The notes: generated by a model from the letters alone, not told the origin. DNA of 64,000 nt from an uncultured bacterium (GCA_963713955.1 OY970216.1:637483-701482); one strand, 5' to 3'. Numbered from the stretch's first letter, positions 1 through 52,184 are shown. Program-made: numbers and translations.

Positions 1-945
1 GAGATACGGGAACGGCGTATCGGCGCACGCGAAGACGGCAACGATTTCCCCCTCCTCGTTCCTGAAGTTGTCGAGATCGCCCGCCCGCTTTCTCCCTTCA
101 AGAAATTTCAGGAGGCCGACCAGGGCGAACCCCGAACTCGGCCCGGCCATGAAACCACTCCGGATGAGAGACAGACTTTTTCGGTACGATTCGCCGGTCC
201 CCGCCTCGACCGTGAAATCAACCTCGGATTTCCAATCGAAGGAAATCATCTTCAGCCGTTCCGCCGTGCGGACGCCGGGAACGTCGCCGCCGGGTTCAAC
301 CACGACGCCCAAGACCGGCGCGCCGGATCTCATTTCCTTTAAATACTTCTTGACGCCGAGAATCATGCCTGTCGTCCCGAGCCCGGCGCAAAAGAGACTG
401 ATCCTCCCTTCCGTTTGCTTCCAAATCTGCTTACCCGTCCACCGGTAGTGGGCTTCAACGTTTGCCTGATTCTCATACTGGTCGAGGTTGAGAAAACCTT
501 CACTCTTCCCGGCTTCCCGGGCTTGCAGGGTCCCATCCTTCTCGCCGGGCCCAACTTTCCTCACCTCGGCGCCGGCCATCCGGAGCAATTTGAGCTTCCC
601 CTCTGCTATGTTCCCGGGCACGAACGTCACGACGTTCGCGATGCCGAACATTTTGCCGAGGATGGCAAGCGAAATCCCGGTATTGCCGGACGAGTTTTCG
701 ACAATCGTCTCGGTTCTCTCGAGACCGCCTTCGCGCTCCGCGTCGAGGAGCATGTTAAAAGCCATGACTGATTTGACGTTCAGGAGCGGCAAAAGATACA
801 TGAGCTTCGCGAATATCCTCACCTTCTCCCCGAGGAACGGGTTCAAATCCGATGGCAGCTCGACAAGCGGAATCATCGGATTCTCGTCCGGATTCATGAA
901 CGTCCTCACCGCATTTGGTCCCTTGAAAACGTTATTTTTTTCCAT
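1..945 (-). CDS. PLP-dependent cysteine synthase / cystathionine beta-synthase family enzyme (3' end runs off window)
   Basis: Reverse-strand reading from ATG at 943-945: MEKNNVFKGPNAVRTF..LNVKSVMAF..VENSSGNTGISLAILGKMFG..GAEVR; SGNTGI loop and PLP-lysine region typical of the CysK/CBS fold. Absent from the ORF track because it is edge-truncated. Confidence 0.7.
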   Translation of the reverse strand, partial: MEKNNVFKGPNAVRTFMNPDENPMIPLVELPSDLNPFLGEKVRIFAKLMYLLPLLNVKSVMAFNMLLDAEREGGLERTETIVENSSGNTGISLAILGKMFGIANVVTFVPGNIAEGKLKLLRMAGAEVRKVGPGEKDGTLQAREAGKSEGFLNLDQYENQANVEAHYRWTGKQIWKQTEGRISLFCAGLGTTGMILGVKKYLKEMRSGAPVLGVVVEPGGDVPGVRTAERLKMISFDWKSEVDFTVEAGTGESYRKSLSLIRSGFMAGPSSGFALVGLLKFLEGRKRAGDLDNFRNEEGEIVAVFACADTPFPYL

Positions 946-954
946 ATTTGATGA

Positions 955-2475
955 CTATACGAAACCCGGGAAAAAATCGCTTCTCACGTTCTTCTTCTCG
1001 ATGTCCATGCTCTCCAAAACTTCCTTGGAACCCTCGACCATGGAATGGGTCCCCGAAACGTAGAACAACCGCTCTTGGTAATCGGGGATTGCTTTTTCGA
1101 TCATTCGCTCGTCAATGCGCCCCCGTTCGCCGTCCCATCCCGCCGGCGCTTCTCCCGTCAGAGTGTAAACCGCTTTCACGCCCACCCTCCTCGCTTCGTC
1201 AAAAATGTCCCGGTACATGATTTCGTCGGCCGTCCGGTTGGAATATAAAAGAACGATGTCCCTCCGTTCGTTTCGATCTAAAAGATATTTCGCCATGCTG
1301 CGAAACGGCGTGATGCCGATCCCGCCCGCGATGAAAACGAGTTTCTTCCTCCTGTCTTTCGGCAAGACAAAATCTCCCGAGAGCTGTGAAGCGGTTATTT
1401 TTTCTCCTTCCTTGAGATACGCAAGTGCTTTCTTGAAAGAGCTGGGATTTTGATAAAACCGTACGCCCATCCGTATTCTCCCTTCGGTCGGCGAAGAAGC
1501 AATCGTGAAATATCTCCGGTTCCCCCTCGAATCCGGCCGCTTGTGCGGGAGCGTCCACTCCAAGTATTGCCCCGGCTTGAACCTCAGTTTCTCGTCAGAC
1601 CGGAAAACGAAATCGTAGAGGCCCGGCCCAATTCGTATTCGCTCCTCAAGCCTCAAGATGAGTTTCTTCTTGGAGCTCGCGAGGTACGAGAAAACGTTGC
1701 CGAGAAGAAGCGCGAGCTCCGGCGTGAAATAAAACGATCCCACGTGGACCTGCGGCGCGAAGAAAAAGCCGACGAGCGCACCGTAGACCATCCGGAGATT
1801 TTCGGTGGGCGGCGTGGTTAAGGGTTCCGTGAGCATGACGAACGCGAAGAAGAAAAGGGGCGAATCGAGAAAAGCCTGACTCGCAAGCCGCACGACGTCC
1901 TGGCCCCCAAAAAATCCGAAGGAGAACGTCGCGATGAGCGAAACTGCAAAGAAACTTATGACCAGATCGGATCGCAAAAGCTTCCTTGTCATCAAGAGCC
2001 CGCCGACGAGAACAAAAGGAAGCAGGGAAGCGGTTCCGACCCACCAGCTCGCCGATTGATTGATGGTGAGAGCGGTCAGGGCAACGCCGAACGCGGCAGG
2101 GTTGAAGACATGTTTCTTCTTGATGGCTAAGATGTATTTCGAAGCCATGGCCCAAACGGACGCCCAAACGGCGAGGGGAAAATACGAAGACGCACTCGAC
2201 GGAAAAAAGGGCGTTATGATGAGCGTGAGAATGAGCGCGGTGATGTAAACGGACTCAACGTTTGTCTGAGCCTCGAAGACGCGCGAGAAAAGGAGGTTCG
2301 TGAGCCAGCATACCGCCGTTATGAAAAATCCAGAGAACAGGAGCCCGCCCCACGAATAGGGAAGTATGTGGACGGCCGAAAAAACGACGGCGACGGCGAA
2401 AAGGCCGAGAAGGTAATAGAGCACCAGCCGGTACATTGTTATCCTGTTCAAAAAATTATCGATAAGATCAATCAT
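955..2475 (-). CDS. Fusion: RnfD/NqrB-like polytopic membrane domain + ferredoxin-NADP reductase-like FAD/NAD(P)-binding domain
   Basis: N-terminal ~250 aa are multi-TM with HVFNPAAFG and MLTEPLTTPP, matching RnfD FNPAM and LTDPVTASTT in order. C-terminal RRYFTIASSP (RxY[ST] FAD motif) and FIAGGIGITP (NAD(P) glycine loop), as in FNR/NqrF-type reductases. Confidence 0.7.
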   Translation of the reverse strand: MIDLIDNFLNRITMYRLVLYYLLGLFAVAVVFSAVHILPYSWGGLLFSGFFITAVCWLTNLLFSRVFEAQTNVESVYITALILTLIITPFFPSSASSYFPLAVWASVWAMASKYILAIKKKHVFNPAAFGVALTALTINQSASWWVGTASLLPFVLVGGLLMTRKLLRSDLVISFFAVSLIATFSFGFFGGQDVVRLASQAFLDSPLFFFAFVMLTEPLTTPPTENLRMVYGALVGFFFAPQVHVGSFYFTPELALLLGNVFSYLASSKKKLILRLEERIRIGPGLYDFVFRSDEKLRFKPGQYLEWTLPHKRPDSRGNRRYFTIASSPTEGRIRMGVRFYQNPSSFKKALAYLKEGEKITASQLSGDFVLPKDRRKKLVFIAGGIGITPFRSMAKYLLDRNERRDIVLLYSNRTADEIMYRDIFDEARRVGVKAVYTLTGEAPAGWDGERGRIDERMIEKAIPDYQERLFYVSGTHSMVEGSKEVLESMDIEKKNVRSDFFPGFV

Positions 2476-2635
2476 GGTTTTGTTCGGCTCATCCAGCCGA
2501 CTTACCGTGCGTCAACACGCGTCGGTCCGCCCCAGCCGGCGGACCGCGCTCGACCTCGTCCTCGCTCTTCTCGCTTCGCTCGAAACCATGCCCGCTCGGA
2601 CTCCGCACGGTTGACTTGACGATAAGTCGGCTGGA
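2476..2635 (-). promoter_or_regulatory. Structured leader / intercistronic element: 21-nt arms of a long inverted repeat enclosing a GC-rich hairpin, ending 15 nt before the start codon of the fusion gene
   Basis: atccagccgacttaccgtgcg (2486-2506) pairs with cgcacgg..taagtcggctggat (2603-2635); internal ggtccgcc..ggcggacc hairpin. Confidence 0.35.
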
Positions 2636-3382
2636 TTAAGTACAAACATATTTTTCAAAACCCGAAGTCATGGTTGCGACGCCCTTTTCATCGATCAGGT
2701 AGCCCTCCAGGCCCTCCCGTCGCTCTATGAAGAGTATGCCCTCCCGCCCCATCGCGAACGCAGCCGTCGCAAACCTGTCGGCTTCGTAGATATCGGGACC
2801 GATGACGCTTAAGCTCACGATTTCCGAAACCGGCTTGTTCCCTCCCCGGGGATTATAGATGTGTTTGCCCCGCTCGTACGTCCCCGAAGTGGCCATTCCC
2901 CCTCTTTTCAAAACGACGGTCTTCACGATTTCCGCGGTATTGAAGGGATTTCGGATGCCGATCCTCCACGCCCGCCCCTCGGCATTCGTCCCGCTAACCT
3001 CGATGTCTCCGCCGGCGTCAACGTAAAAGTTCTCAAAACCCCTTCCCCTTAAAATATCTGCGGCGTTCCGGATTGCCCACCCTTTCACCAACCCCGACGG
3101 GTCATACCCGCCGCCGGGAGCGACGATGTCGAAATAACCACTGGTTTCCTTTTTCGTTTCTTCCGCCAACCTGAAAATTTCTCTCATGTCGGAGCTTAAA
3201 CCCGACTCACCGATCTCTCCATTATTGATCCTCGTTATCTCGCTTGAATCTTTGTACGTGCTGAAAGTGTCATCAACGTATTCAAAATAGGAGAAGACTT
3301 CTTCAAGGTTCTCGGATGTGACATCGGCGTCGACAACCTCGACGGTCACCGGCATACCCATGAGTATTCGCGTCTCCTTCAT
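2636..3382 (-). CDS. apbE: FAD:protein FMN transferase (ApbE family flavin transferase)
   Basis: 248 aa; MKETRILMGMPVTVEV start (ApbE MGTxV-type), plus GWAIR.., DAGGDI, TSGTYERG motifs typical of ApbE. Confidence 0.8.
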   Translation of the reverse strand: MKETRILMGMPVTVEVVDADVTSENLEEVFSYFEYVDDTFSTYKDSSEITRINNGEIGESGLSSDMREIFRLAEETKKETSGYFDIVAPGGGYDPSGLVKGWAIRNAADILRGRGFENFYVDAGGDIEVSGTNAEGRAWRIGIRNPFNTAEIVKTVVLKRGGMATSGTYERGKHIYNPRGGNKPVSEIVSLSVIGPDIYEADRFATAAFAMGREGILFIERREGLEGYLIDEKGVATMTSGFEKYVCT

Positions 3383-3386
3383 GTCG

Positions 3387-3857
3387 TTAACTCGCTTTCG
3401 AGAGAGCGGAAGCTAAAGATTCCTGGAACGCCTGGCTCGTTTGCGTCGCTCCCGAAACGATGTCCACGTTCGAGCTTTGCGCTTGGATTGCTTCCCGAGT
3501 CAAAATGGGCATTGCCTTATTGCTCACGGAGCGGGAGTAAGATCGGTCGTTCGGATACTGGAGGAACGTGACGTCCGCGATTTTCCCCGACTTGATCGAA
3601 ACTTGCACCTCAACGTTCCCGAAAAAAGCGTTCGCGACATCGCCGATATACGCCCCATCTTTGTAGGCACCCGTCATACCGCCCATCGGCATAGAAGGAT
3701 TATTGCTTGATTGCTGCTGTGGCGGTGCTGACGCAGCCGGCGCCGGTGACACCAATGGAGACGTACTGGTCGAGCCGCTCCGGCCGCCGAGATGCTGTGC
3801 AATGACGTAAAAAACGAAAACGGCGACCACGGCCGAGGATAAGACTACTTTCTTCAT
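3387..3857 (-). CDS. Membrane-anchored FMN-binding domain protein (NqrC/RnfG-type FMN_bind) with SGAT flavinylation motif
   Basis: N-terminal TM helix, low-complexity Pro/Ser/Gln linker, then ..NVDIVSGATQTSQAF.. ([S/T]GAT[S/T] flavin-attachment motif). Confidence 0.65.
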   Translation of the reverse strand: MKKVVLSSAVVAVFVFYVIAQHLGGRSGSTSTSPLVSPAPAASAPPQQQSSNNPSMPMGGMTGAYKDGAYIGDVANAFFGNVEVQVSIKSGKIADVTFLQYPNDRSYSRSVSNKAMPILTREAIQAQSSNVDIVSGATQTSQAFQESLASALSKAS

Positions 3858-3899
3858 TGTTATGAATACGTTGTCTTCACCTTTTCTGTTTCATCATTA

Positions 3900-3930
3900 T
3901 ACAAGAAAAGAGGCCTTTAAAGGGCCTCCT
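3900..3930 (-). terminator. Rho-independent terminator after the Cys-rich gene, followed by a TATAAT box for the FMN-binding gene
   Basis: Minus-strand RNA GAGGCCCUUUAAAGGCCUC + UUUUCUUGUAUAAUG. Confidence 0.5.
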
Positions 3931-3955
3931 TTCCTTAATCCCGGTTCTCAATCGG

Positions 3956-4309
3956 CTATTGGCCGGTCGTGGTCGATCCCTGGGCACCGCTGTAATTCCC
4001 GTTCCAGCCGTACATCATGGGAACAGGGTATCTCGAACCGCCGCCACCCCGCATCATATAACGCACGGGCATTTCACGATACCCCCCGCCCCAAAACGAG
4101 AACATGGCGCCGAGTTTGAATCCGGCGCAGAAAACGATGGCGAGGACGATGATGCCGATGAGCCACCTGAGCCAGCGCCTCCGGCAGCCCCCGTGCATGA
4201 AGCAATGACACGAACCGCAGGCGCAACCGCCGCACGCTTCGCACTTGCCTCCGCTGCACATCGGACACTTGCATCCCTCGGGATGATCATTTTTTTGCTG
4301 CATCTCCAT
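3956..4309 (-). CDS. Small Cys-rich membrane protein (CxxC-rich N-terminus, one TM helix, Gly/Met/Tyr-rich C-terminus)
   Basis: 117 aa: GCKCPMCSGGKCEACGGCACGSCHCFMHGGC, then WLRWLIGIIVLAIVFCAGF TM, then GGGYREMPVRYMMRGGGGSRYPVPMMYGWNGNYSG. First gene of a same-strand tight cluster. The overlapping + ORF 3959..4462 is rejected. Confidence 0.55.
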   Translation of the reverse strand: MEMQQKNDHPEGCKCPMCSGGKCEACGGCACGSCHCFMHGGCRRRWLRWLIGIIVLAIVFCAGFKLGAMFSFWGGGYREMPVRYMMRGGGGSRYPVPMMYGWNGNYSGAQGSTTTGQ

Positions 4310-4371
4310 AAAATTATTTTTTACTTTAACATTAAACGACCTTTGTGCCTATTTTCATTATACTATAGTTG

Positions 4372-6801
4372 TCAAGACTTTTTCTTCGTCCCCTTTGTCC
4401 CGCCAGAAACGGAATGTCCGCCGAATTGGTTTCGGAGCGCGGAAAGAATGCGTCCCATATAACTCGGCGATTTTTTAGATCGCATGCGGAACTTGAAAGC
4501 ATCCTCAATGGCCGGCAACTTCATGTCCCGTTTGCGCGCCGTCAGGATCGTCCACTCGCCTTCTCCGGTCGCGACAACCGACCCCGAAATTCCTTTCAAA
4601 TCTTCACCGTGCGCGCGGAAGGCGTTCTCGAGCCACCCGACGAGCCTCGATTCGATGACGCTCCCCCGGTTGTAAACCGCCGCGACTTCTTTAAGATTCA
4701 ATTTGAAAGGAGATTTTTTCATGAGCGCGAAACCCTCCGCGAGCGATTGCATCATGCCGTACTCGATTCCGTTGTGCACCATTTTGACGAAATGCCCCGC
4801 GCCCGCTTCCCCGAAACGGGCATAGCCGCCGGGCACCGAGAGATCCGCGAAGAGTTTTCCAAGAGACTCAAACGTCTTCGGTTCCCCGCCTATCATGAGG
4901 GAACCGCCATGGCGCGCGCCGGAAGGCCCGCCCGAAAAACCGACGTCCATAAATCGTATGCCTCTTTTAGCGAGGAGTTTCGACCGACGGACCGTATCCT
5001 CGAAAAACGAGTTGCCGGCGTCGATGACGACGTCTCCTCTATCTAAAAACTTCGTCAAACCGCCTTTCCCGAAAAGAGCGTCATCCACTCCCTTTCCCGC
5101 CGTAATCATGAGCCACACAACCCTCGGGCGCTTGAGTTTCGATATGAGTTCCTCGATCGAGAAGGCCGTCTCGAAACCCTCCTCGCCGATCTCGTCCACG
5201 GGGCCCTGCGAGCGATTCGCCGCGACGACGCGCCATCCCTTGTCGCGAAGCTGGCGTGCGACGTTCCGACCCATCTTTCCCAGGCCGAAAATTCCTATCT
5301 CTCCCGCCGGGAGGCCGTTGAGAGAAACGCCGTTATCCAAAGCTTCCGCCTCGGCGGAAATCGAAGAGTTGTCCGGCCGGTAGTGCTTCAGAGGGACTGT
5401 GTTCTTCCGCCAGCCGGCGATTATGGAATCGATGAAGCGCCACATGGCGGATATTTCGGCGCTTGAGACGAAAAGCATCTGATTATCCGATATGCAATCG
5501 AGGAGGAGCTTTTCGTACTCTTCCGTATATTGCGTCCTCCGGCCAGTTTTCCGGAGATCGAAATCAAACGTTCGCTCTTCGAGCTCCATCGTGAGTCCCG
5601 GCTTCTTCGACCAAAAATGAATGGTAATACCCTCGGCGGGATCCTGTTTGAAAACAACGGAATTCCGGTAATGCTTGCCGGGCGGACAAAGGCAGGGCCG
5701 CGGATGCCTGAAAGTCACTTCTATTTCCGTTATCTCGCCGCGGGAGCCGGGATTCATGAGCCGTTTACCGGCTTCCATAATGAACGTCACGCCGCGCCAC
5801 CGGGGATGCGCAAGGGAAAATCTTGCCCTGAAGTAGGTCTCGGTATCGGAATCGGGACGCACGCCCTTCACGGAGCGGTACCCTTCGTACTGAGCCCGGA
5901 ATGTCTGTCGCTTGACTTCTTTAAAAGACAGAGGAACGAGCGTTTGGAGGATCGACGCGCGATTTTTCCTCACGGCGTCGGCTTCCAGGCTTTCCGGCTG
6001 ATCCATCGTGACCAAAGCCACCATCTGGAGAAGGTGGTTCTGGCCGACGTCCCGGAGCGCCCCCACCGCGTCGTAAAAGGGACCGCGGTCTTCCACCCCG
6101 ATGTTCTCGAATTCGCGGACGCGCACGCTCTCGATGAGTTCGTTCCCCCAATTGTCCTCGAAAAGATTGTTGAAGAACCGGAATGCCATCACGTTCTGGA
6201 ACGTTTCTTTGGCCAAGTAATGGTCAATCCGGTAAATCTGATCTTCGCTGAAAAGCTTGGCGAGTTCCGCGTCGAGTGCTTTTGCGCTCTTCTCGTCGCT
6301 GCCGAACGGTTTTTCCACGATTACCCTTGTCCATCCTTCTTCGGGTCCGCCGCACGGTTCGCTCAAGCCCGATGCCGAAATATTTTTCAGTATCTCCGGA
6401 TAAAAGCGCGGCGGCACCGCGAGGTACAAGAGTTTGTTCGAACACATACCCCAGCGACCGTCGACGGCTTTGAGCGCCTCGGAAAGCCTCGCGTAGTCGG
6501 CTTCGTTCTCAAACGTCCCCCGTTCGTAGGAGTAAAGCGAGAGGAATTTTTCAATGCGTTTCTTTTCGCGATTCACGTTTACATGTTTTTTGAGTATCTC
6601 CCTCACCCGTTCCCGGAAATCGCTGTCCGTTAGATCACGTCTCGCGAAACCGACGACGCGAAACATGCGCGGCAAAGAATCCTTCGCGAAAAGGTTATAG
6701 AGGGCCGGCACTATCTTCTTCGTCATGAGATCGCCGGTCGCTCCAATGATGACGACAATGGTCGGTATTCGAGGTTTTACGTCCTTCTTTTTTGCAGACA
6801 T
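4372..6801 (-). CDS. zwf: Bifunctional fusion: glucose-6-phosphate 1-dehydrogenase (Zwf) + short-form 6-phosphogluconate dehydrogenase (Gnd/YqeC-type)
   Basis: 809 aa. N-terminal part has IIGATGDLMTKKIVPALYNLF and RIDHYLAKE (G6PD signatures). C-terminal ~300 aa has IGIFGLGKMGRNVA, DAGNSFFEDT, GEAGAGHFVKMVHNGIEYGMMQ (6PGDH signatures). Confidence 0.85.
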   Translation of the reverse strand: MSAKKKDVKPRIPTIVVIIGATGDLMTKKIVPALYNLFAKDSLPRMFRVVGFARRDLTDSDFRERVREILKKHVNVNREKKRIEKFLSLYSYERGTFENEADYARLSEALKAVDGRWGMCSNKLLYLAVPPRFYPEILKNISASGLSEPCGGPEEGWTRVIVEKPFGSDEKSAKALDAELAKLFSEDQIYRIDHYLAKETFQNVMAFRFFNNLFEDNWGNELIESVRVREFENIGVEDRGPFYDAVGALRDVGQNHLLQMVALVTMDQPESLEADAVRKNRASILQTLVPLSFKEVKRQTFRAQYEGYRSVKGVRPDSDTETYFRARFSLAHPRWRGVTFIMEAGKRLMNPGSRGEITEIEVTFRHPRPCLCPPGKHYRNSVVFKQDPAEGITIHFWSKKPGLTMELEERTFDFDLRKTGRRTQYTEEYEKLLLDCISDNQMLFVSSAEISAMWRFIDSIIAGWRKNTVPLKHYRPDNSSISAEAEALDNGVSLNGLPAGEIGIFGLGKMGRNVARQLRDKGWRVVAANRSQGPVDEIGEEGFETAFSIEELISKLKRPRVVWLMITAGKGVDDALFGKGGLTKFLDRGDVVIDAGNSFFEDTVRRSKLLAKRGIRFMDVGFSGGPSGARHGGSLMIGGEPKTFESLGKLFADLSVPGGYARFGEAGAGHFVKMVHNGIEYGMMQSLAEGFALMKKSPFKLNLKEVAAVYNRGSVIESRLVGWLENAFRAHGEDLKGISGSVVATGEGEWTILTARKRDMKLPAIEDAFKFRMRSKKSPSYMGRILSALRNQFGGHSVSGGTKGTKKKS

Positions 6802-6844: not shown

Positions 6845-7936
6845 TCATTCGGCGAAATGCTTGGAAAGCTTCGCCTTCGATTGGAAAGAATAATTGGAGG
6901 TCCCAAGCGAATCGTAAAGGATCTCGGGGATTTCAGCCATCCGCTCAAACTTGATCTTCGCGATTGCCTGCTTGTTCCTGATAATCATATCCTCGAAAGG
7001 CCTCACTTCGAGCGTCGCGGGACGCCCTTTCCCCTCGCCTGCCTTGCCGTATCCCCATCCTGGATCGAAAAACCCCGCGTAGTGGGACCTAAATTCACCG
7101 CTCCGTTCATCCATCGGAGCGACTTCGAGCGCCATGGAGGGGGGGACCCGCACGGCCTCCTTGGTGGACAAAATGTAAAATCCTCCTTTCTTCAGGGAAA
7201 CGCTTTCTCCTTTCTTCATCAGCCTGAAAAAATCATCGGGATCGTAGAATTTCCTTTTTGAAAAATCCATCACCTTGTTCGATCCCAAGCATTCGTACCC
7301 GATTGCATCTTGATCGAGGTCTAATCTCAGGATCACCGAGCCGTCGCCGTCCCTTATTTTGATGTCTTCATAGCGTATCGGCTCTCCGTGGCTGTCGAAA
7401 ACGAGTGCTTCCTTGTCGAGGACGTCTTTGAGTTCATTTTCTGTAAGCCTCGTATCGCGGTTGAAAAACCGGACTTGCGTCAGCCGCTCGCCCGGAGAAA
7501 CCTTGATCGGATATGAACGCGGGTTCACAGCGAGCCACAGCGATCCCGCATACCCCCGAGGAATCGTATCATAGCGCGAAACCCCGTCCGCGAGCACGCG
7601 GACGTGAACGTCATTCCGGCCCGTCGAACTCTTCGGGTTACAATAGCCGTAGAGATCCGGCGGCAGAGCAATAACTTCATTGAGGCGCGCAAGATACGTT
7701 ACATCCCGTTCGAGCGGATTCTCGAAGTTGTGCTTCGAGTGTTCCGTTTTCTCCACGAGTTCTGCGATTGTTTCACCCGGACGCGGCAGAAATATTCCCT
7801 CCACCCGGTATATTTCTTCCGAAAGAGAGAGATCAATTGACGCGGGGTTCAGATTTTCATCGGCGGTGTTCTTAATCGACCCTCCCCGGATCAGTTCTTT
7901 CACCTCTTGATACGGCAAAGCTCCAAAGCCATCCAT
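6845..7936 (-). CDS. dUTPase-fold protein, long-form dCTP deaminase-like (DCD family-like)
   Basis: Start taken at internal Met (MDGFGALPYQEVKELIRGGSI), since the upstream 122 codons are antisense to a plausible + gene. NLNPASIDLSL and CNPKSSTGRNDVHV resemble Dcd motifs (ATVDVRLG, GRSSLARLG). 364 aa. Confidence 0.45.
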   Translation of the reverse strand: MDGFGALPYQEVKELIRGGSIKNTADENLNPASIDLSLSEEIYRVEGIFLPRPGETIAELVEKTEHSKHNFENPLERDVTYLARLNEVIALPPDLYGYCNPKSSTGRNDVHVRVLADGVSRYDTIPRGYAGSLWLAVNPRSYPIKVSPGERLTQVRFFNRDTRLTENELKDVLDKEALVFDSHGEPIRYEDIKIRDGDGSVILRLDLDQDAIGYECLGSNKVMDFSKRKFYDPDDFFRLMKKGESVSLKKGGFYILSTKEAVRVPPSMALEVAPMDERSGEFRSHYAGFFDPGWGYGKAGEGKGRPATLEVRPFEDMIIRNKQAIAKIKFERMAEIPEILYDSLGTSNYSFQSKAKLSKHFAE

Positions 7937-7954
7937 AGTATCATTAATGATATA

Positions 7955-8311
7955 ATGAATCCATCCATGGAAGCAATTTACTACCCATGCCGCTACTGCG
8001 GAAACCAAGTTCCTCCCGATGCTTATTTTTGCCCCGCGTGCGGAAAGCAGCTGAGAGAGAAGGAACTTTCGACTTCCGTCGCAAAGCAGATACTGATCTA
8101 CGCCGTGAGCTTCTTTTTGCCTCCTCTCGGACTCATGTGGACTTTCAAGTACCTGAAGCAGGAGAGCCAAAAAGCCAAAAATATCGGGATCATTTCTCTT
8201 GTCCTCACCGTTGTTGCCATAGCCGTCGCCGTCTGGGTCACGGCCGACATCGTGAACGGCCTGAACTCGTACCTCAACAATCAGCTTAACGGAAGTTTGC
8301 AACTGTACTAG
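7955..8311 (+). CDS. Zinc-ribbon (CxxC..CxxC) membrane protein, hypothetical
   Basis: MNPSMEAIYYPCRYCGNQVPPDAYFCPACGK, then two predicted TM helices. AT-rich upstream taatgatataatg. Confidence 0.5.
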   Translation: MNPSMEAIYYPCRYCGNQVPPDAYFCPACGKQLREKELSTSVAKQILIYAVSFFLPPLGLMWTFKYLKQESQKAKNIGIISLVLTVVAIAVAVWVTADIVNGLNSYLNNQLNGSLQLY

Positions 8312-51458: not shown

Positions 51459-52184
51459 ATGATGAATTCCTATAGATCAAAACTCATCAAGAAGGAAGAG
51501 ATTGCGAAGGGTACCATGGCTTTCCACTTCGAAAAGCCGGACGGCTTCTCTTTCGTGCCCGGCCAGTACGCGGATCTTACCATGGTGAATCCGAAGGAAA
51601 CGGATGAGGAGGGCAACATCAGAACCTTCACGATCGCGAGCGCCCCCCTCGAAAAAGATCTCATCTTCGCGACCCGGATGCGCGACACGGCCTTCAAGCG
51701 CGAGCTTGGCAAAATGCCGGAAGGAGCGGAAATCGAGATTGATGGGCCATTCGGCTCCTTTACGCTCCATACCAAAAGAGAGAAACCCGCCGCCTTCATC
51801 GCCGGCGGCATCGGCATCACACCGTTCTTGAGCATTCTGAAAACCGCGGCCGAAGAAAAACCCGACCGGAAATTCTATTTGTTTTATTCCAACCGGACCG
51901 AGGATGATGCTCCATTCCTCCGCGACCTTTCCAGCCTGACAAAAGGAACTCCCGGTTTCACGTTCGTGCCAACGATGTCCAACCTCCCGCCGGGAGAAAA
52001 CGGGTGGAAGGGGGAAACCGGTTACATCAACGGCGACATGATAAAGAAACATCTTCCCACGATCGACGGCCCGATATACTACCTCGCAGGGCCTCCGCAA
52101 ATGGTCGCTGCCATGAGGAAAATGCTTTCCGAGATGGGAGTATCCGAGGATGACATTCGCTTCGAGGAATTTTCAGGCTACTAG
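51459..52184 (+). CDS. Stand-alone ferredoxin-NADP reductase-like FAD/NAD(P)-binding oxidoreductase
   Basis: RTFTIASAP (RxY[ST]-type) and FIAGGIGITPF; paralogous to the C-terminal domain of 955..2475. Confidence 0.75.
   Translation: MMNSYRSKLIKKEEIAKGTMAFHFEKPDGFSFVPGQYADLTMVNPKETDEEGNIRTFTIASAPLEKDLIFATRMRDTAFKRELGKMPEGAEIEIDGPFGSFTLHTKREKPAAFIAGGIGITPFLSILKTAAEEKPDRKFYLFYSNRTEDDAPFLRDLSSLTKGTPGFTFVPTMSNLPPGENGWKGETGYINGDMIKKHLPTIDGPIYYLAGPPQMVAAMRKMLSEMGVSEDDIRFEEFSGY

What the first reader, a model, noticed from the sequence alone, without database searches (positions are those of the whole stretch)
955..4309. Operon-like flavin-based membrane electron-transfer module next to an NADPH-generating Zwf::Gnd fusion
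Four tightly spaced same-strand genes (gaps 4-98 nt) sit in this order. First a Cys-rich single-TM protein, then a membrane-anchored FMN_bind protein with the SGAT flavinylation motif, then ApbE (flavin transferase), then an RnfD/NqrB-like membrane domain fused to an FNR-like NAD(P)H:FAD domain. The Zwf::Gnd fusion immediately upstream yields 2 NADPH per glucose-6-phosphate. That fits an NAD(P)H to FAD to membrane to extracytoplasmic FMN electron conduit. It is reminiscent of flavin-based extracellular electron transfer (PplA/FmnB) and of Rnf/Nqr, but with a different, minimal subunit set. No quinone-binding or canonical Rnf/Nqr partner subunits are present.
Basis: partly seen in the sequence, partly recalled or inferred. 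Interest (0 to 1): 0.8.

Follow-up and report, generated by a model that had tools for sequence, protein, structure and literature searches.

The report
Known minimal Nqr/Rnf-like flavin electron conduit
This is a three-gene membrane module, already described from genome surveys as the "Nqr/Rnf-like" system but never tested experimentally, that probably passes electrons from NAD(P)H inside the cell to a flavin protein outside; it is a typical member of a family that is very common in Patescibacteria (CPR).

Summary
The minus strand carries a Cys-rich one-helix protein (3956-4309), a membrane-anchored FMN_bind protein with an SGAT motif (3387-3857), ApbE (2636-3382) and an NqrB/RnfD-like membrane domain fused to an FNR-type FAD/NAD(P)H domain (955-2475). 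A Zwf::Gnd fusion (4372-6801) lies upstream.

The proposed NAD(P)H to FAD to membrane to outside-FMN conduit is reasonable but not new. It matches the operational definition of the "NQR/RNF-like system" (Meheust 2021, eLife; Huang 2024, mSystems), which is known only in silico.

In 81 related loci only FMN_bind, ApbE and the fusion protein are co-conserved, in that order. The Cys-rich gene sits next to the module in 4 lineages and elsewhere in others, and a terminator-like hairpin follows it here. Zwf::Gnd and a downstream cysteine-synthase-like gene are linked only in the closest clade.

Points not mentioned in either paper:
- The cluster's ApbE lacks any signal peptide family-wide, although its substrate is predicted to be exported.
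- A conserved 160-nt hairpin separates ApbE from the fusion gene.
- A conserved acidic residue hints at NADH rather than NADPH.

Verdict: a new member of a known kind, of modest interest.

The parts
955..2475 (-). Core subunit 1 (506 aa). Residues 1-268 form a 10-helix NqrB/RnfD-like membrane domain. Residues 272-506 form an FNR-type FAD/NAD(P)H domain with the motifs RRYFTIASSP, GGIGITP and YVSG.
   Evidence: Pfam PF03116 and PF00175. The C-terminal domain matches NADH-cytochrome b5 reductase and NqrF in the PDB. The N-terminal profile matches RnfD 8ahx_D at E 1e-4. The full-length AF2 model has pLDDT 88.7. The N-domain model matches only RnfD and NqrB. The motifs are near-invariant in 80 homologs.
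2476..2635 (-). Structured 160-nt spacer between ApbE and the fusion gene. It is a long hairpin closed by a 14-17 bp outer stem (arms at 2491-2504 and 2623-2636) and has no U-tract after it.
   Evidence: MFE -82.4 kcal/mol, z = -6.4. The arms are unique in the window. There is no Rfam match. The same-position element in L003 and L002/L081 has compensatory changes in the outer stem. It is absent where ApbE and the fusion gene overlap.
2636..3382 (-). ApbE-family FAD:protein FMN transferase (248 aa). It is a bare catalytic domain with no signal peptide, lipobox or hydrophobic segment.
   Evidence: PF02424, E 8e-43. The ORF cannot extend upstream, because it starts 4 nt after the FMN_bind stop. 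A hydropathy scan finds no TM segment. The same signal-less form occurs in essentially all 68 loci that have an ApbE.
3387..3857 (-). Core subunit 2 (156 aa), NqrC/RnfG-like. It has an MKK + TM signal anchor, a Ser/Pro/Ala/Gln-rich linker and an FMN_bind domain with the flavinylation motif DIVSGAT (Thr138).
   Evidence: PF04205, E 9e-10. The motif [DN]x[VI][ST]GA[TS] is kept in 73 of 73 partners. The charge difference across the anchor is negative in 73 of 73 (mean -2.8), which predicts N-in/C-out.
3896..3935 (-). Terminator-like hairpin (3903-3935: A-tract, 13-bp stem, U-tract) directly followed by TATAAT (3896-3901). It lies between the Cys-rich gene and FMN_bind.
   Evidence: Sequence read directly. 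Fold energy -19.9 kcal/mol, z = -3.0. The pattern scan listed the palindrome on the + strand only.
3956..4309 (-). Cys-rich single-TM protein (117 aa). It is an occasional neighbour, probably not a core component. It has an HPEGCxCxxC...GKCExCG N-terminus (predicted cytoplasmic), one TM helix and a Gly/Tyr/Met-rich tail.
   Evidence: No Pfam or NCBIfam hit. The family is small: 116 clusters at 50% identity. It is adjacent to FMN_bind in the window, L006, L021/L083 and L041. It sits elsewhere in L082, L088-L092. In L086 it is next to an ArsR-type regulator.
4372..6801 (-). Zwf::Gnd fusion (809 aa). It is a clade-specific neighbour and a possible source of reduced nicotinamide cofactor.
   Evidence: Pfam G6PD_N/C plus NAD_binding_2/6PGD. 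TIGR00871 and NF007161 score above their cut-offs, and TIGR00872 (NAD+-dependent Gnd) also scores above its cut-off. It is within 2 kb of the fusion gene, in two different arrangements, in L001-L004 and L081. The fusion itself is widespread in Patescibacteria.
1..945 (-). PLP-dependent (PALP) cysteine-synthase-family gene. It starts 9 nt after the fusion gene's stop and is cut by the window edge. It is a clade-specific downstream neighbour.
   Evidence: Six-frame translation. A homolog lies immediately downstream of the fusion gene in L001-L004 and L081. It is only a distant CysK/M relative, at 80 bits against a cut-off of 344.

Best explanation
The locus encodes a member of the 'Nqr/Rnf-like' flavinylation-associated system: a two-subunit, all-flavin transmembrane NAD(P)H oxidoreductase plus its own flavin transferase.

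Proposed mechanism:
1. NADH or NADPH reduces FAD in the cytoplasmic FNR-type domain of the 506-aa protein (inferred from homology and conserved motifs).
2. Electrons cross the membrane through the fused 10-helix NqrB/RnfD-like domain, most likely through a non-covalent flavin pocket inherited from NqrB/RnfD (inferred). The loop that carries the covalent FMN in NqrB/RnfD is missing here (shown).
3. Electrons reach FMN covalently bound to Thr138 of the membrane-anchored NqrC/RnfG-like FMN_bind subunit on the outer face. The motif and topology are shown; flavinylation itself is inferred.
4. ApbE installs that FMN from FAD (inferred).
5. The outer FMN reduces an unidentified extracytosolic acceptor such as a metal ion, O2, a soluble flavin or quinone, or a disulfide.

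No NqrD/E or RnfA/E-type subunits are present. The system is therefore probably a one-way electron sink or reductase rather than an ion pump.

The functional unit is the three genes FMN_bind-ApbE-fusion. The Cys-rich protein, Zwf::Gnd and the PALP gene are lineage-specific neighbours.
For: - Domain identities.
- RnfD/NqrB fold of the N-domain. High-confidence full-length model.
- Predicted topology is N-in, C-in with 10 helices. Positive loops (KKKH 118-122, RK 164-165, KKK 269-271) lie on the same side as the FNR domain.
- The FMN_bind partner always has an N-in/C-out anchor and an intact flavinylation motif.
- By phmmer, FMN_bind is found in 72 and ApbE in 68 of 81 loci, nearly always directly upstream on the same strand with overlaps or 4-nt gaps. 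BLAST clustering shows these are the only recurrent neighbours.
- More than 7,900 database homologs were found. The top 120 are all about 505 aa; all 120 carry PF00175 and about 95 also carry PF03116 in the precomputed Pfam column.
- The locus meets the published operational definition and model of the class.
Against: - No member of the class has been studied experimentally. Cofactor content, direction of electron flow, donor and acceptor are all inferred.
- ApbE is predicted cytosolic while its substrate is predicted extracytosolic, so the maturation step is unexplained.
- The four closest relatives (L001, L002, L004, L081) have ApbE and the fusion gene but no FMN_bind within 10 kb.
- The PF03116 match is only just above threshold and covers the C-terminal half of the profile.
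Confidence: 0.72

Rival explanations
1. First reader's wider module. A four- or five-gene, NADPH-coupled unit in which the Cys-rich protein is a structural or redox partner and the Zwf::Gnd fusion is the dedicated NADPH supplier. Glucose-6-phosphate oxidation would then be wired directly to extracellular reduction.
For: - In the closest clade Zwf::Gnd stays within 2 kb of the fusion gene in two different gene orders: upstream in the window and L003, downstream of PALP in L001, L002, L004 and L081.
- The Cys-rich gene lies directly upstream of FMN_bind in four separate lineages.
- In two other clade genomes the Cys-rich gene lies next to Zwf::Gnd or near PALP.
Against: - 74 of 81 loci have no Zwf::Gnd within 10 kb, although that fusion is common in Patescibacteria.
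- The Cys-rich family is small (116 clusters). It also occurs next to DsbD/thioredoxin, MsrA/B, Cupin/UbiA and ArsR genes with no flavin module nearby.
- A terminator-like hairpin and a TATAAT box separate it from FMN_bind here.
- Donor specificity leans towards NADH, and the Gnd half also fits an NAD+-dependent model.
Confidence: 0.15
2. Cytoplasm-facing system. Because ApbE is cytosolic, the FMN_bind domain would be flavinylated and would function on the cytoplasmic face. The module would then be a membrane-bound intracellular NAD(P)H:acceptor reductase rather than an outward conduit.
For: ApbE lacks any export signal in essentially every locus. Cytosolic ApbE enzymes that serve cytosolic substrates are known, for example in Klebsiella pneumoniae with fumarate reductase (review PMC12052999).
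Against: - All 73 FMN_bind partners have an MKK + TM anchor with negative C-minus-N charge and a long low-complexity linker, which predicts N-in/C-out.
- Their homologs NqrC/RnfG are periplasmic.
- The short loop that replaces the flavinylated loop of NqrB/RnfD is predicted to lie outside.
- The AlphaFold-multimer model in Huang 2024 docks the subunit on the outer face.
Confidence: 0.08
3. Reverse or energy-coupled operation. The complex would take electrons from an external donor to reduce NAD(P)+, or would pump ions like Nqr/Rnf.
For: NqrB/RnfD belong to ion-translocating complexes, and Meheust 2021 notes that the direction could in principle be reversed.
Against: None of the partner families recovered in the neighbourhood survey is an NqrD/E, RnfA/E, NqrA or RnfB/C homolog. 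No energy-coupling element is evident. Uphill NAD(P)+ reduction without coupling is thermodynamically unfavourable (general knowledge).
Confidence: 0.05

Closest known systems
NQR/RNF-like (Nqr/Rnf-like) flavinylation-associated system (Meheust et al. 2021, eLife, PMC8238504; Huang et al. 2024, mSystems, PMC11334425; modelled for Ktedonobacter racemifer)
   Same: It has the same two subunits (PF03116 + PF00175 fusion, and a membrane-anchored FMN_bind protein) and the same clustering with ApbE. The flavinylated Thr loop is absent from the membrane subunit. The same one-way NAD(P)H-to-outside model applies.
   Different: Nothing essential differs; this is a member. Local extras are the Cys-rich neighbour, the Zwf::Gnd and PALP linkage, and the 160-nt hairpin between ApbE and the fusion gene. 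The signal-less ApbE appears family-wide, but neither paper's main text mentions it.
Na+-NQR (NqrA-F) of Vibrio cholerae
   Same: The membrane domain has the NqrB fold. The FMN_bind subunit resembles NqrC. The FNR domain resembles the FAD/NADH domain of NqrF. ApbE-dependent covalent FMN is expected.
   Different: There is no NqrA, NqrD or NqrE and no 2Fe-2S centres. There is no covalent-FMN loop in the NqrB-like domain and no evident quinone site. The NqrF-like domain is fused directly to the NqrB-like domain. Electron flow is expected to be one-way outward rather than semicircular, with no ion pumping expected.
Rnf complex (RnfABCDEG)
   Same: RnfD is the best sequence and fold match for the membrane domain. 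The partner resembles RnfG.
   Different: There is no RnfA, RnfB, RnfC or RnfE and no ferredoxin link. The flavinylated Thr loop of RnfD is deleted.
Listeria-type flavin-based extracellular electron transfer (Ndh2, EetA/B, DmkA/B, FmnA/B, PplA)
   Same: An ApbE-family enzyme and a membrane-tethered FMN_bind flavoprotein are proposed to deliver cytosolic NADH electrons to the outside.
   Different: There is no Ndh2, demethylmenaquinone or EetAB route. The PplA model scores 22.7 bits against a cut-off of 325. FmnB is a secreted lipoprotein, whereas this ApbE has no signal.
Bacterial NADPH oxidase SpNOX, and ferric-reductase/MsrQ-like proteins fused to PF00175
   Same: The logic is the same: a cytoplasmic FNR-type dehydrogenase domain fused to a membrane domain that carries electrons outward. 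SpNOX chains appear among the fold hits through the FNR domain.
   Different: Those proteins use two b-type hemes in a ferric-reductase domain. This one uses an NqrB/RnfD-like domain and flavins only.

Membership tests
NQR/RNF-like flavinylation-associated system (Meheust 2021 definition) | One protein with an N-terminal PF03116 (NqrB/RnfD) membrane domain and a C-terminal PF00175 NAD-binding domain | tested here: met
   PF03116 scores 30.2 bits (gathering 27.7) at residues 147-264. PF00175 has E 7e-19 at residues 381-483. The fold of residues 1-268 matches only RnfD and NqrB.
NQR/RNF-like flavinylation-associated system (Meheust 2021 definition) | [quoted passage not shown] | tested here: met
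   ApbE and FMN_bind lie immediately upstream on the same strand. The same order is seen in about 60 of 81 related loci.
NQR/RNF-like flavinylation-associated system (Huang 2024 features) | Partner is a membrane-anchored extracytosolic NqrC/RnfG-like subunit with a flavinylation site | tested here: met
   It has an MKK + TM anchor with charge bias -2, which predicts N-in/C-out, and an SGAT motif at residues 135-138. Both features are kept in 73 of 73 partners.
NQR/RNF-like flavinylation-associated system (Huang 2024 features) | Membrane subunit lacks the conserved flavinylated Thr of NqrB/RnfD | tested here: met
   Only about 12 residues (INQSASWWVGTA) lie between the FNPA helix and the next helix, where RnfD/NqrB carry a long loop with the Thr (the comparison with E. 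coli RsxD is from memory). A residual S-A-[S/T] is present in 70 of 80 homologs and is N, I or G in the other 10. A cryptic site is therefore unlikely but not excluded.
NQR/RNF-like flavinylation-associated system | Covalent FMN on the partner, and NAD(P)H-driven outward electron transfer | not testable with these tools
   This needs protein chemistry. No experimental paper was found.
Canonical Na+-NQR / Rnf complexes | Six-subunit complex that includes NqrD/E or RnfA/E and NqrA/F or RnfB/C | tested here: not met
   Besides FMN_bind and ApbE, the recurrent neighbour families in 81 loci are ABC transporters, histidine kinase/response regulator pairs, an ECF sigma factor, HlyD/MacB and a P-type ATPase, each in 19 loci or fewer. 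None of these is an Nqr or Rnf subunit. The rest of the 64-kb window was not scanned family by family.
Canonical Na+-NQR / Rnf complexes | NqrB/RnfD carries covalent FMN on a conserved Thr | tested here: not met
   The loop is absent.
Listeria-type flavin-based EET (PplA/FmnB) | PplA-type lipoprotein with FMN_bind domains, secreted FmnB, and Ndh2/EetAB/Dmk genes | tested here: not met
   The PplA model NF041941 scores 22.7 bits against a cut-off of 325. The anchor has no lipobox. ApbE is signal-less. No Ndh2- or Eet-like family recurs in the neighbourhood.
ApbE FAD:protein FMN transferase | ApbE catalytic domain | tested here: met
   PF02424 scores 147 bits.
ApbE FAD:protein FMN transferase | N-terminal signal peptide or lipobox that places the enzyme outside the cytoplasm (typical, but not universal) | tested here: not met
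   The ORF begins with the catalytic domain and cannot be extended. It has no hydrophobic segment. In about 45 of 68 loci fewer than 20 in-frame codons precede aligned residue 1.
FNR (ferredoxin-NADP+ reductase) superfamily | FAD-binding RxY(S/T) motif, GGxGxxP nucleotide motif and a C-terminal aromatic residue | tested here: met
   RRYFTIASSP, GGIGITP and the C-terminal DFFPGF are near-invariant in 80 homologs. The domain aligns to cytochrome b5 reductase and NqrF.

The most novel reading that the evidence does not exclude
The dedicated ApbE of this very large, mostly CPR family is cytosolic, while its only evident substrate is an exported, signal-anchored FMN_bind domain. Two readings follow. 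Flavinylation may precede export, so that a flavinylated chain or a holo-domain crosses the membrane; that would be a maturation route not described for ApbE substrates. Alternatively, ApbE may have a second, cytoplasmic-face target. In this clade the module is also tied to a Zwf::Gnd fusion. That would make it a candidate for the main NAD(P)H-reoxidising electron sink of a fermentative, respiration-less CPR cell. Its expression would be tuned by the conserved intergenic hairpin.
Probability: 0.2. Interest if true: 0.6.

Novelty: new member of a known kind. Interest (0 to 1): 0.3.

Why it matters
CPR/Patescibacteria lack respiratory chains, and how they balance redox is an open question. A three-gene, all-flavin NAD(P)H-to-outside conduit was found in at least 180 species-level genomes with one set of peptide patterns and has thousands of database homologs. 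It may therefore be one of their commonest membrane redox devices. The 2021 survey filtered on signal peptides and reported CPR as under-represented, so it probably undercounted the family.

The class itself is already published, so this locus adds detail rather than a new concept:
- It defines the real core as three genes.
- It shows the accessory status of the Cys-rich, Zwf::Gnd and PALP neighbours.
- It flags the unexplained cytosolic ApbE.
- It suggests NADH rather than NADPH as the likely donor.

Tried and rejected
- Sequence search of the full protein against the PDB found only FNR-domain relatives. A profile of the N-terminal domain was needed to reach RnfD.
- A fold search with the full-length model was swamped by FNR-domain hits. 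A separate N-domain model was needed.
- The word-based homolog search for the Cys-rich protein found only itself.
- The four-sequence Cys-rich alignment was too divergent for a locus scan. The three-sequence scan of metagenome contigs gave only 2 loci.
- The exhaustive HMMER search gave 116 clusters. Context look-ups showed mixed neighbourhoods, so I rejected the Cys-rich protein as a core subunit.
- I considered S143 (in S-A-S-W-W) as a cryptic flavinylation site in the membrane domain. It is S or T in 70 of 80 homologs but N, I or G in the rest. It aligns better with the 'AGWQW' helix start of RnfD than with the 'QATPL' site, a comparison made from memory. I judged it unlikely.
- Rfam gave nothing for the intergenic hairpin.
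- The promoter and terminator pattern scan was at chance level overall. I read the terminator-like hairpin after the Cys-rich gene directly from the sequence.
- I looked for FMN_bind near the four closest relatives with a family HMM and found none within 10 kb.
- A literature search for a described Zwf::Gnd fusion in CPR found nothing.

Full report
**1. Observation**

The minus strand of window 1-6801 carries, in transcription order:
- Zwf::Gnd, 4372-6801, 809 aa.
- A Cys-rich one-helix protein, 3956-4309, 117 aa.
- An FMN_bind protein, 3387-3857, 156 aa.
- ApbE, 2636-3382, 248 aa.
- A 506-aa fusion protein, 955-2475.
- A PLP-dependent cysteine-synthase-like gene that starts at about 945 and runs off the window start.

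- PF03116 NQR2_RnfD_RnfE at 30.2 bits, just above the gathering score of 27.7.
- PF00175, E 7e-19.
- ApbE, E 8e-43.
- FMN_bind, E 9e-10.
- G6PD_N/C plus NAD_binding_2/6PGD for the Zwf::Gnd fusion.

The Cys-rich protein has no family hit.

The gaps are 62, 98, 4, 160 and 9 nt.

**2. The fusion protein**

The C-terminal 235 residues align to NADH-cytochrome b5 reductase and to the FAD/NADH domain of NqrF. The FNR motifs RRYFTIASSP, GGIGITP and DFFPGF are near-invariant in 80 homologs.

A 29-sequence profile of the N-terminal 270 residues hits a single PDB family, RnfD (8ahx_D, E 1.1e-4).

The full-length AlphaFold model is confident (pLDDT 88.7, pTM 0.81), but its fold hits are dominated by the FNR domain. 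A model of residues 1-268 alone (pLDDT 82.5) gives RnfD and NqrB chains as its top 15 Foldseek hits (E 5e-5 to 2e-3, TM-score up to 0.72). Urea transporters follow at E > 0.1. The NqrB/RnfD assignment is therefore sound.

The helices in the model and the positive loops (KKKH 118-122, RK 164-165, KKK 269-271) give 10 helices with both ends inside. The FNR domain is then cytoplasmic.

Only about 12 residues (INQSASWWVGTA) lie between the conserved HxFNPAAF helix and the next helix. In RnfD/NqrB a long outer loop at that point carries the flavinylated Thr. That comparison is from my memory of E. coli RsxD. Huang 2024 says the same of the class.

**3. The partner and ApbE**

The FMN_bind protein has an MKK + hydrophobic anchor, a low-complexity linker and DIVSGAT. 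In 73 of 73 partners from related loci the motif [DN]x[VI][ST]GA[TS] is intact. In all 73 the charge difference across the anchor is negative (mean -2.8), which predicts N-in/C-out.

ApbE is a bare catalytic domain. Its ORF starts 4 nt after the FMN_bind stop and cannot be extended. It has no hydrophobic segment. In essentially all 68 loci with an ApbE the alignment starts at residue 1, and in about 45 of them fewer than 20 in-frame codons lie upstream.

A cytosolic flavin transferase paired with an exported substrate is unexplained. I did not find it mentioned in either paper on this class. Cytosolic ApbEs are known only for cytosolic substrates.

**4. Conservation**

The fusion protein has more than 7,900 database homologs. 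The top 120 are all about 505 aa; all carry PF00175 and about 95 also carry PF03116 in the precomputed Pfam column, and the few that carry a source name are labelled Patescibacteria or with a generic enzyme name.

A genome scan returned 80 loci, out of at least 180 confirmed. Most are CPR, with some Ktedonobacteraceae and Acidobacteriota.

Searching the window's proteins against six-frame ORFs of 81 loci gave these counts:
- FMN_bind: 72 loci.
- ApbE: 68 loci.
- Cys-rich protein: 2 loci.
- Zwf::Gnd: 7 loci.
- PALP: 6 loci.

The order FMN_bind-ApbE-fusion on one strand, with overlaps or 4-nt gaps, is nearly universal. Nine loci have FMN_bind directly next to the fusion gene with no ApbE between them.

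Independent BLAST clustering of called genes shows these three families as the only recurrent neighbours, in 80, 61 and 62 loci. The next families each occur in 19 loci or fewer: ABC transporters, histidine kinase/response regulator pairs, an ECF sigma factor, HlyD/MacB and a P-type ATPase. The functional unit is a trio.

**5. The extras**

*Cys-rich gene.* A pattern-free look upstream of FMN_bind found similar small proteins in only three other loci: L006, L021 and L041. L083 is the same as L021. The family has 116 clusters at 50% identity in 1.84 billion representatives.

Contexts of its homologs:

| Locus | Neighbours of the Cys-rich homolog |
|---|---|
| L085 | Directly after Zwf::Gnd, then an unrelated response regulator and ThiF |
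| L086 (same assembly as L003) | About 3.5 kb past PALP, next to an ArsR-type regulator |
| L088 | DsbD and thioredoxin genes |
| L089, L090 | Cupin and UbiA genes |
| L092 | MsrA and MsrB genes |
| L082, L091 | Other unrelated genes |

In the window the gene is followed by an A-tract/13-bp stem/U-tract hairpin (3903-3935, -19.9 kcal/mol) and then TATAAT. I read it as an occasional neighbour with its own transcript. It may be metal- or thiol-related.

*Zwf::Gnd and PALP.* Both are linked to the fusion gene only in the closest clade (fusion protein 68-74% identical): L001-L004 and L081. Two gene orders occur there. That is weak evidence for a clade-specific functional tie. The Zwf::Gnd fusion itself is common in Patescibacteria, with at least 120 clusters of 773-845 aa.

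The four nearest relatives lack FMN_bind within 10 kb.

**6. Donor**

The residue aligned with the ribose-binding Asp of NADH-cytochrome b5 reductase and with Glu of NqrF is D or E in 79 of 80 homologs. The role of that Asp is from my own knowledge. This leans towards NADH.

The Gnd half passes the cut-offs of both an NADP-type model and an NAD+-type model. "Two NADPH per glucose-6-phosphate feeding the module" is therefore unproven.

**7. Comparison with the literature**

Meheust et al. 2021 defined the "NQR/RNF-like system" as a PF03116 + PF00175 protein in a flavinylation cluster. They found it in 127 genomes, mainly Actinobacteria and CPR, and proposed one-way NAD(P)H-to-outside transfer.

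Huang et al. 2024 modelled the two-subunit complex and noted the missing Thr.

Neither paper, nor any other I found, reports experiments.

This locus meets every testable criterion of the class. It fails the criteria of canonical Nqr/Rnf and of Listeria-type EET.

**8. Side observation**

The 160-nt ApbE-to-fusion spacer folds into a long hairpin (-82.4 kcal/mol, z = -6.4). It has no Rfam match. It recurs at the same position in L003 and L002/L081, with compensatory changes in the 15-17 bp outer stem. With only three distinct sequences this is suggestive, not proven.

**9. Verdict**

It is a new member of a known kind, and interest is about 0.3. The most interesting leftover is the cytosolic ApbE.

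Noticed in passing
window 2476-2635 (minus strand): The 160-nt spacer between ApbE and the fusion gene forms a very stable long hairpin (-82.4 kcal/mol, z = -6.4). It has no Rfam match. The same element, with compensatory changes in the outer stem, occurs in L003 (9839-10000) and L002/L081. It is absent in most loci, where the two genes overlap.
   Followed up: partly
window 2636-3382, and ApbE genes of L001-L081: The cluster's ApbE has no signal peptide, lipobox or TM segment in essentially all loci, although its predicted substrate is exported. I did not find this mentioned in the two papers that describe the class.
   Followed up: partly
window 3896-3935 (minus strand): A terminator-like hairpin (A-tract, 13-bp stem, U-tract) followed by a perfect TATAAT lies between the Cys-rich gene and FMN_bind. 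This suggests separate transcription units.
   Followed up: partly
window 1-945 (minus strand): A PLP-dependent cysteine-synthase-family gene starts 9 nt after the fusion gene's stop and is cut by the window edge. The same gene follows the fusion gene in L001-L004 and L081. It is only a distant CysK/M relative (80 bits against a cut-off of 344), so its specificity is unknown.
   Followed up: partly
window 4372-6801 (minus strand): The Zwf::Gnd fusion (with no lactonase) is not a one-off. At least 120 clusters of 773-845-aa proteins with the same four domains exist. Those that carry a source name are mostly labelled Patescibacteria or Paceibacterota and are annotated only as glucose-6-phosphate dehydrogenase. 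No paper describing the fusion was found. The Gnd half passes both an NADP-type and an NAD+-type model.
   Followed up: partly
window 3956-4309; L086 3915-4564; L088; L092: The Cys-rich/Met-rich one-helix protein belongs to a small family (116 clusters at 50% identity). Its members sit next to an ArsR-type regulator, DsbD/thioredoxin genes or MsrA/MsrB in other genomes. This hints at a metal or thiol-stress role.
   Followed up: partly
window 51459-52184 (plus strand): A stand-alone 241-aa FNR-type paralog of the fusion protein's C-terminal domain (E 2e-35 to it). It has the same TFTIASAP, GGIGITP and YSNRTEDD motifs and no membrane domain.
   Followed up: no
L001, L002, L004, L081 (closest relatives, 71-74% identity): These loci keep ApbE-fusion-PALP-Zwf::Gnd but have no FMN_bind gene within 10 kb, even by family HMM. 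A truncated pyruvate kinase gene occupies the upstream position in L081.
   Followed up: partly
window 6845-8302 (minus strand) and 7907-8311 (plus strand): The longest ORF for the dCTP deaminase gene is 485 aa, but the family match covers only residues 124-484, so the true start is probably internal. The freed region overlaps a plus-strand ORF that encodes a zinc-ribbon (CxxC...CxxC) protein with two hydrophobic helices.
   Followed up: no
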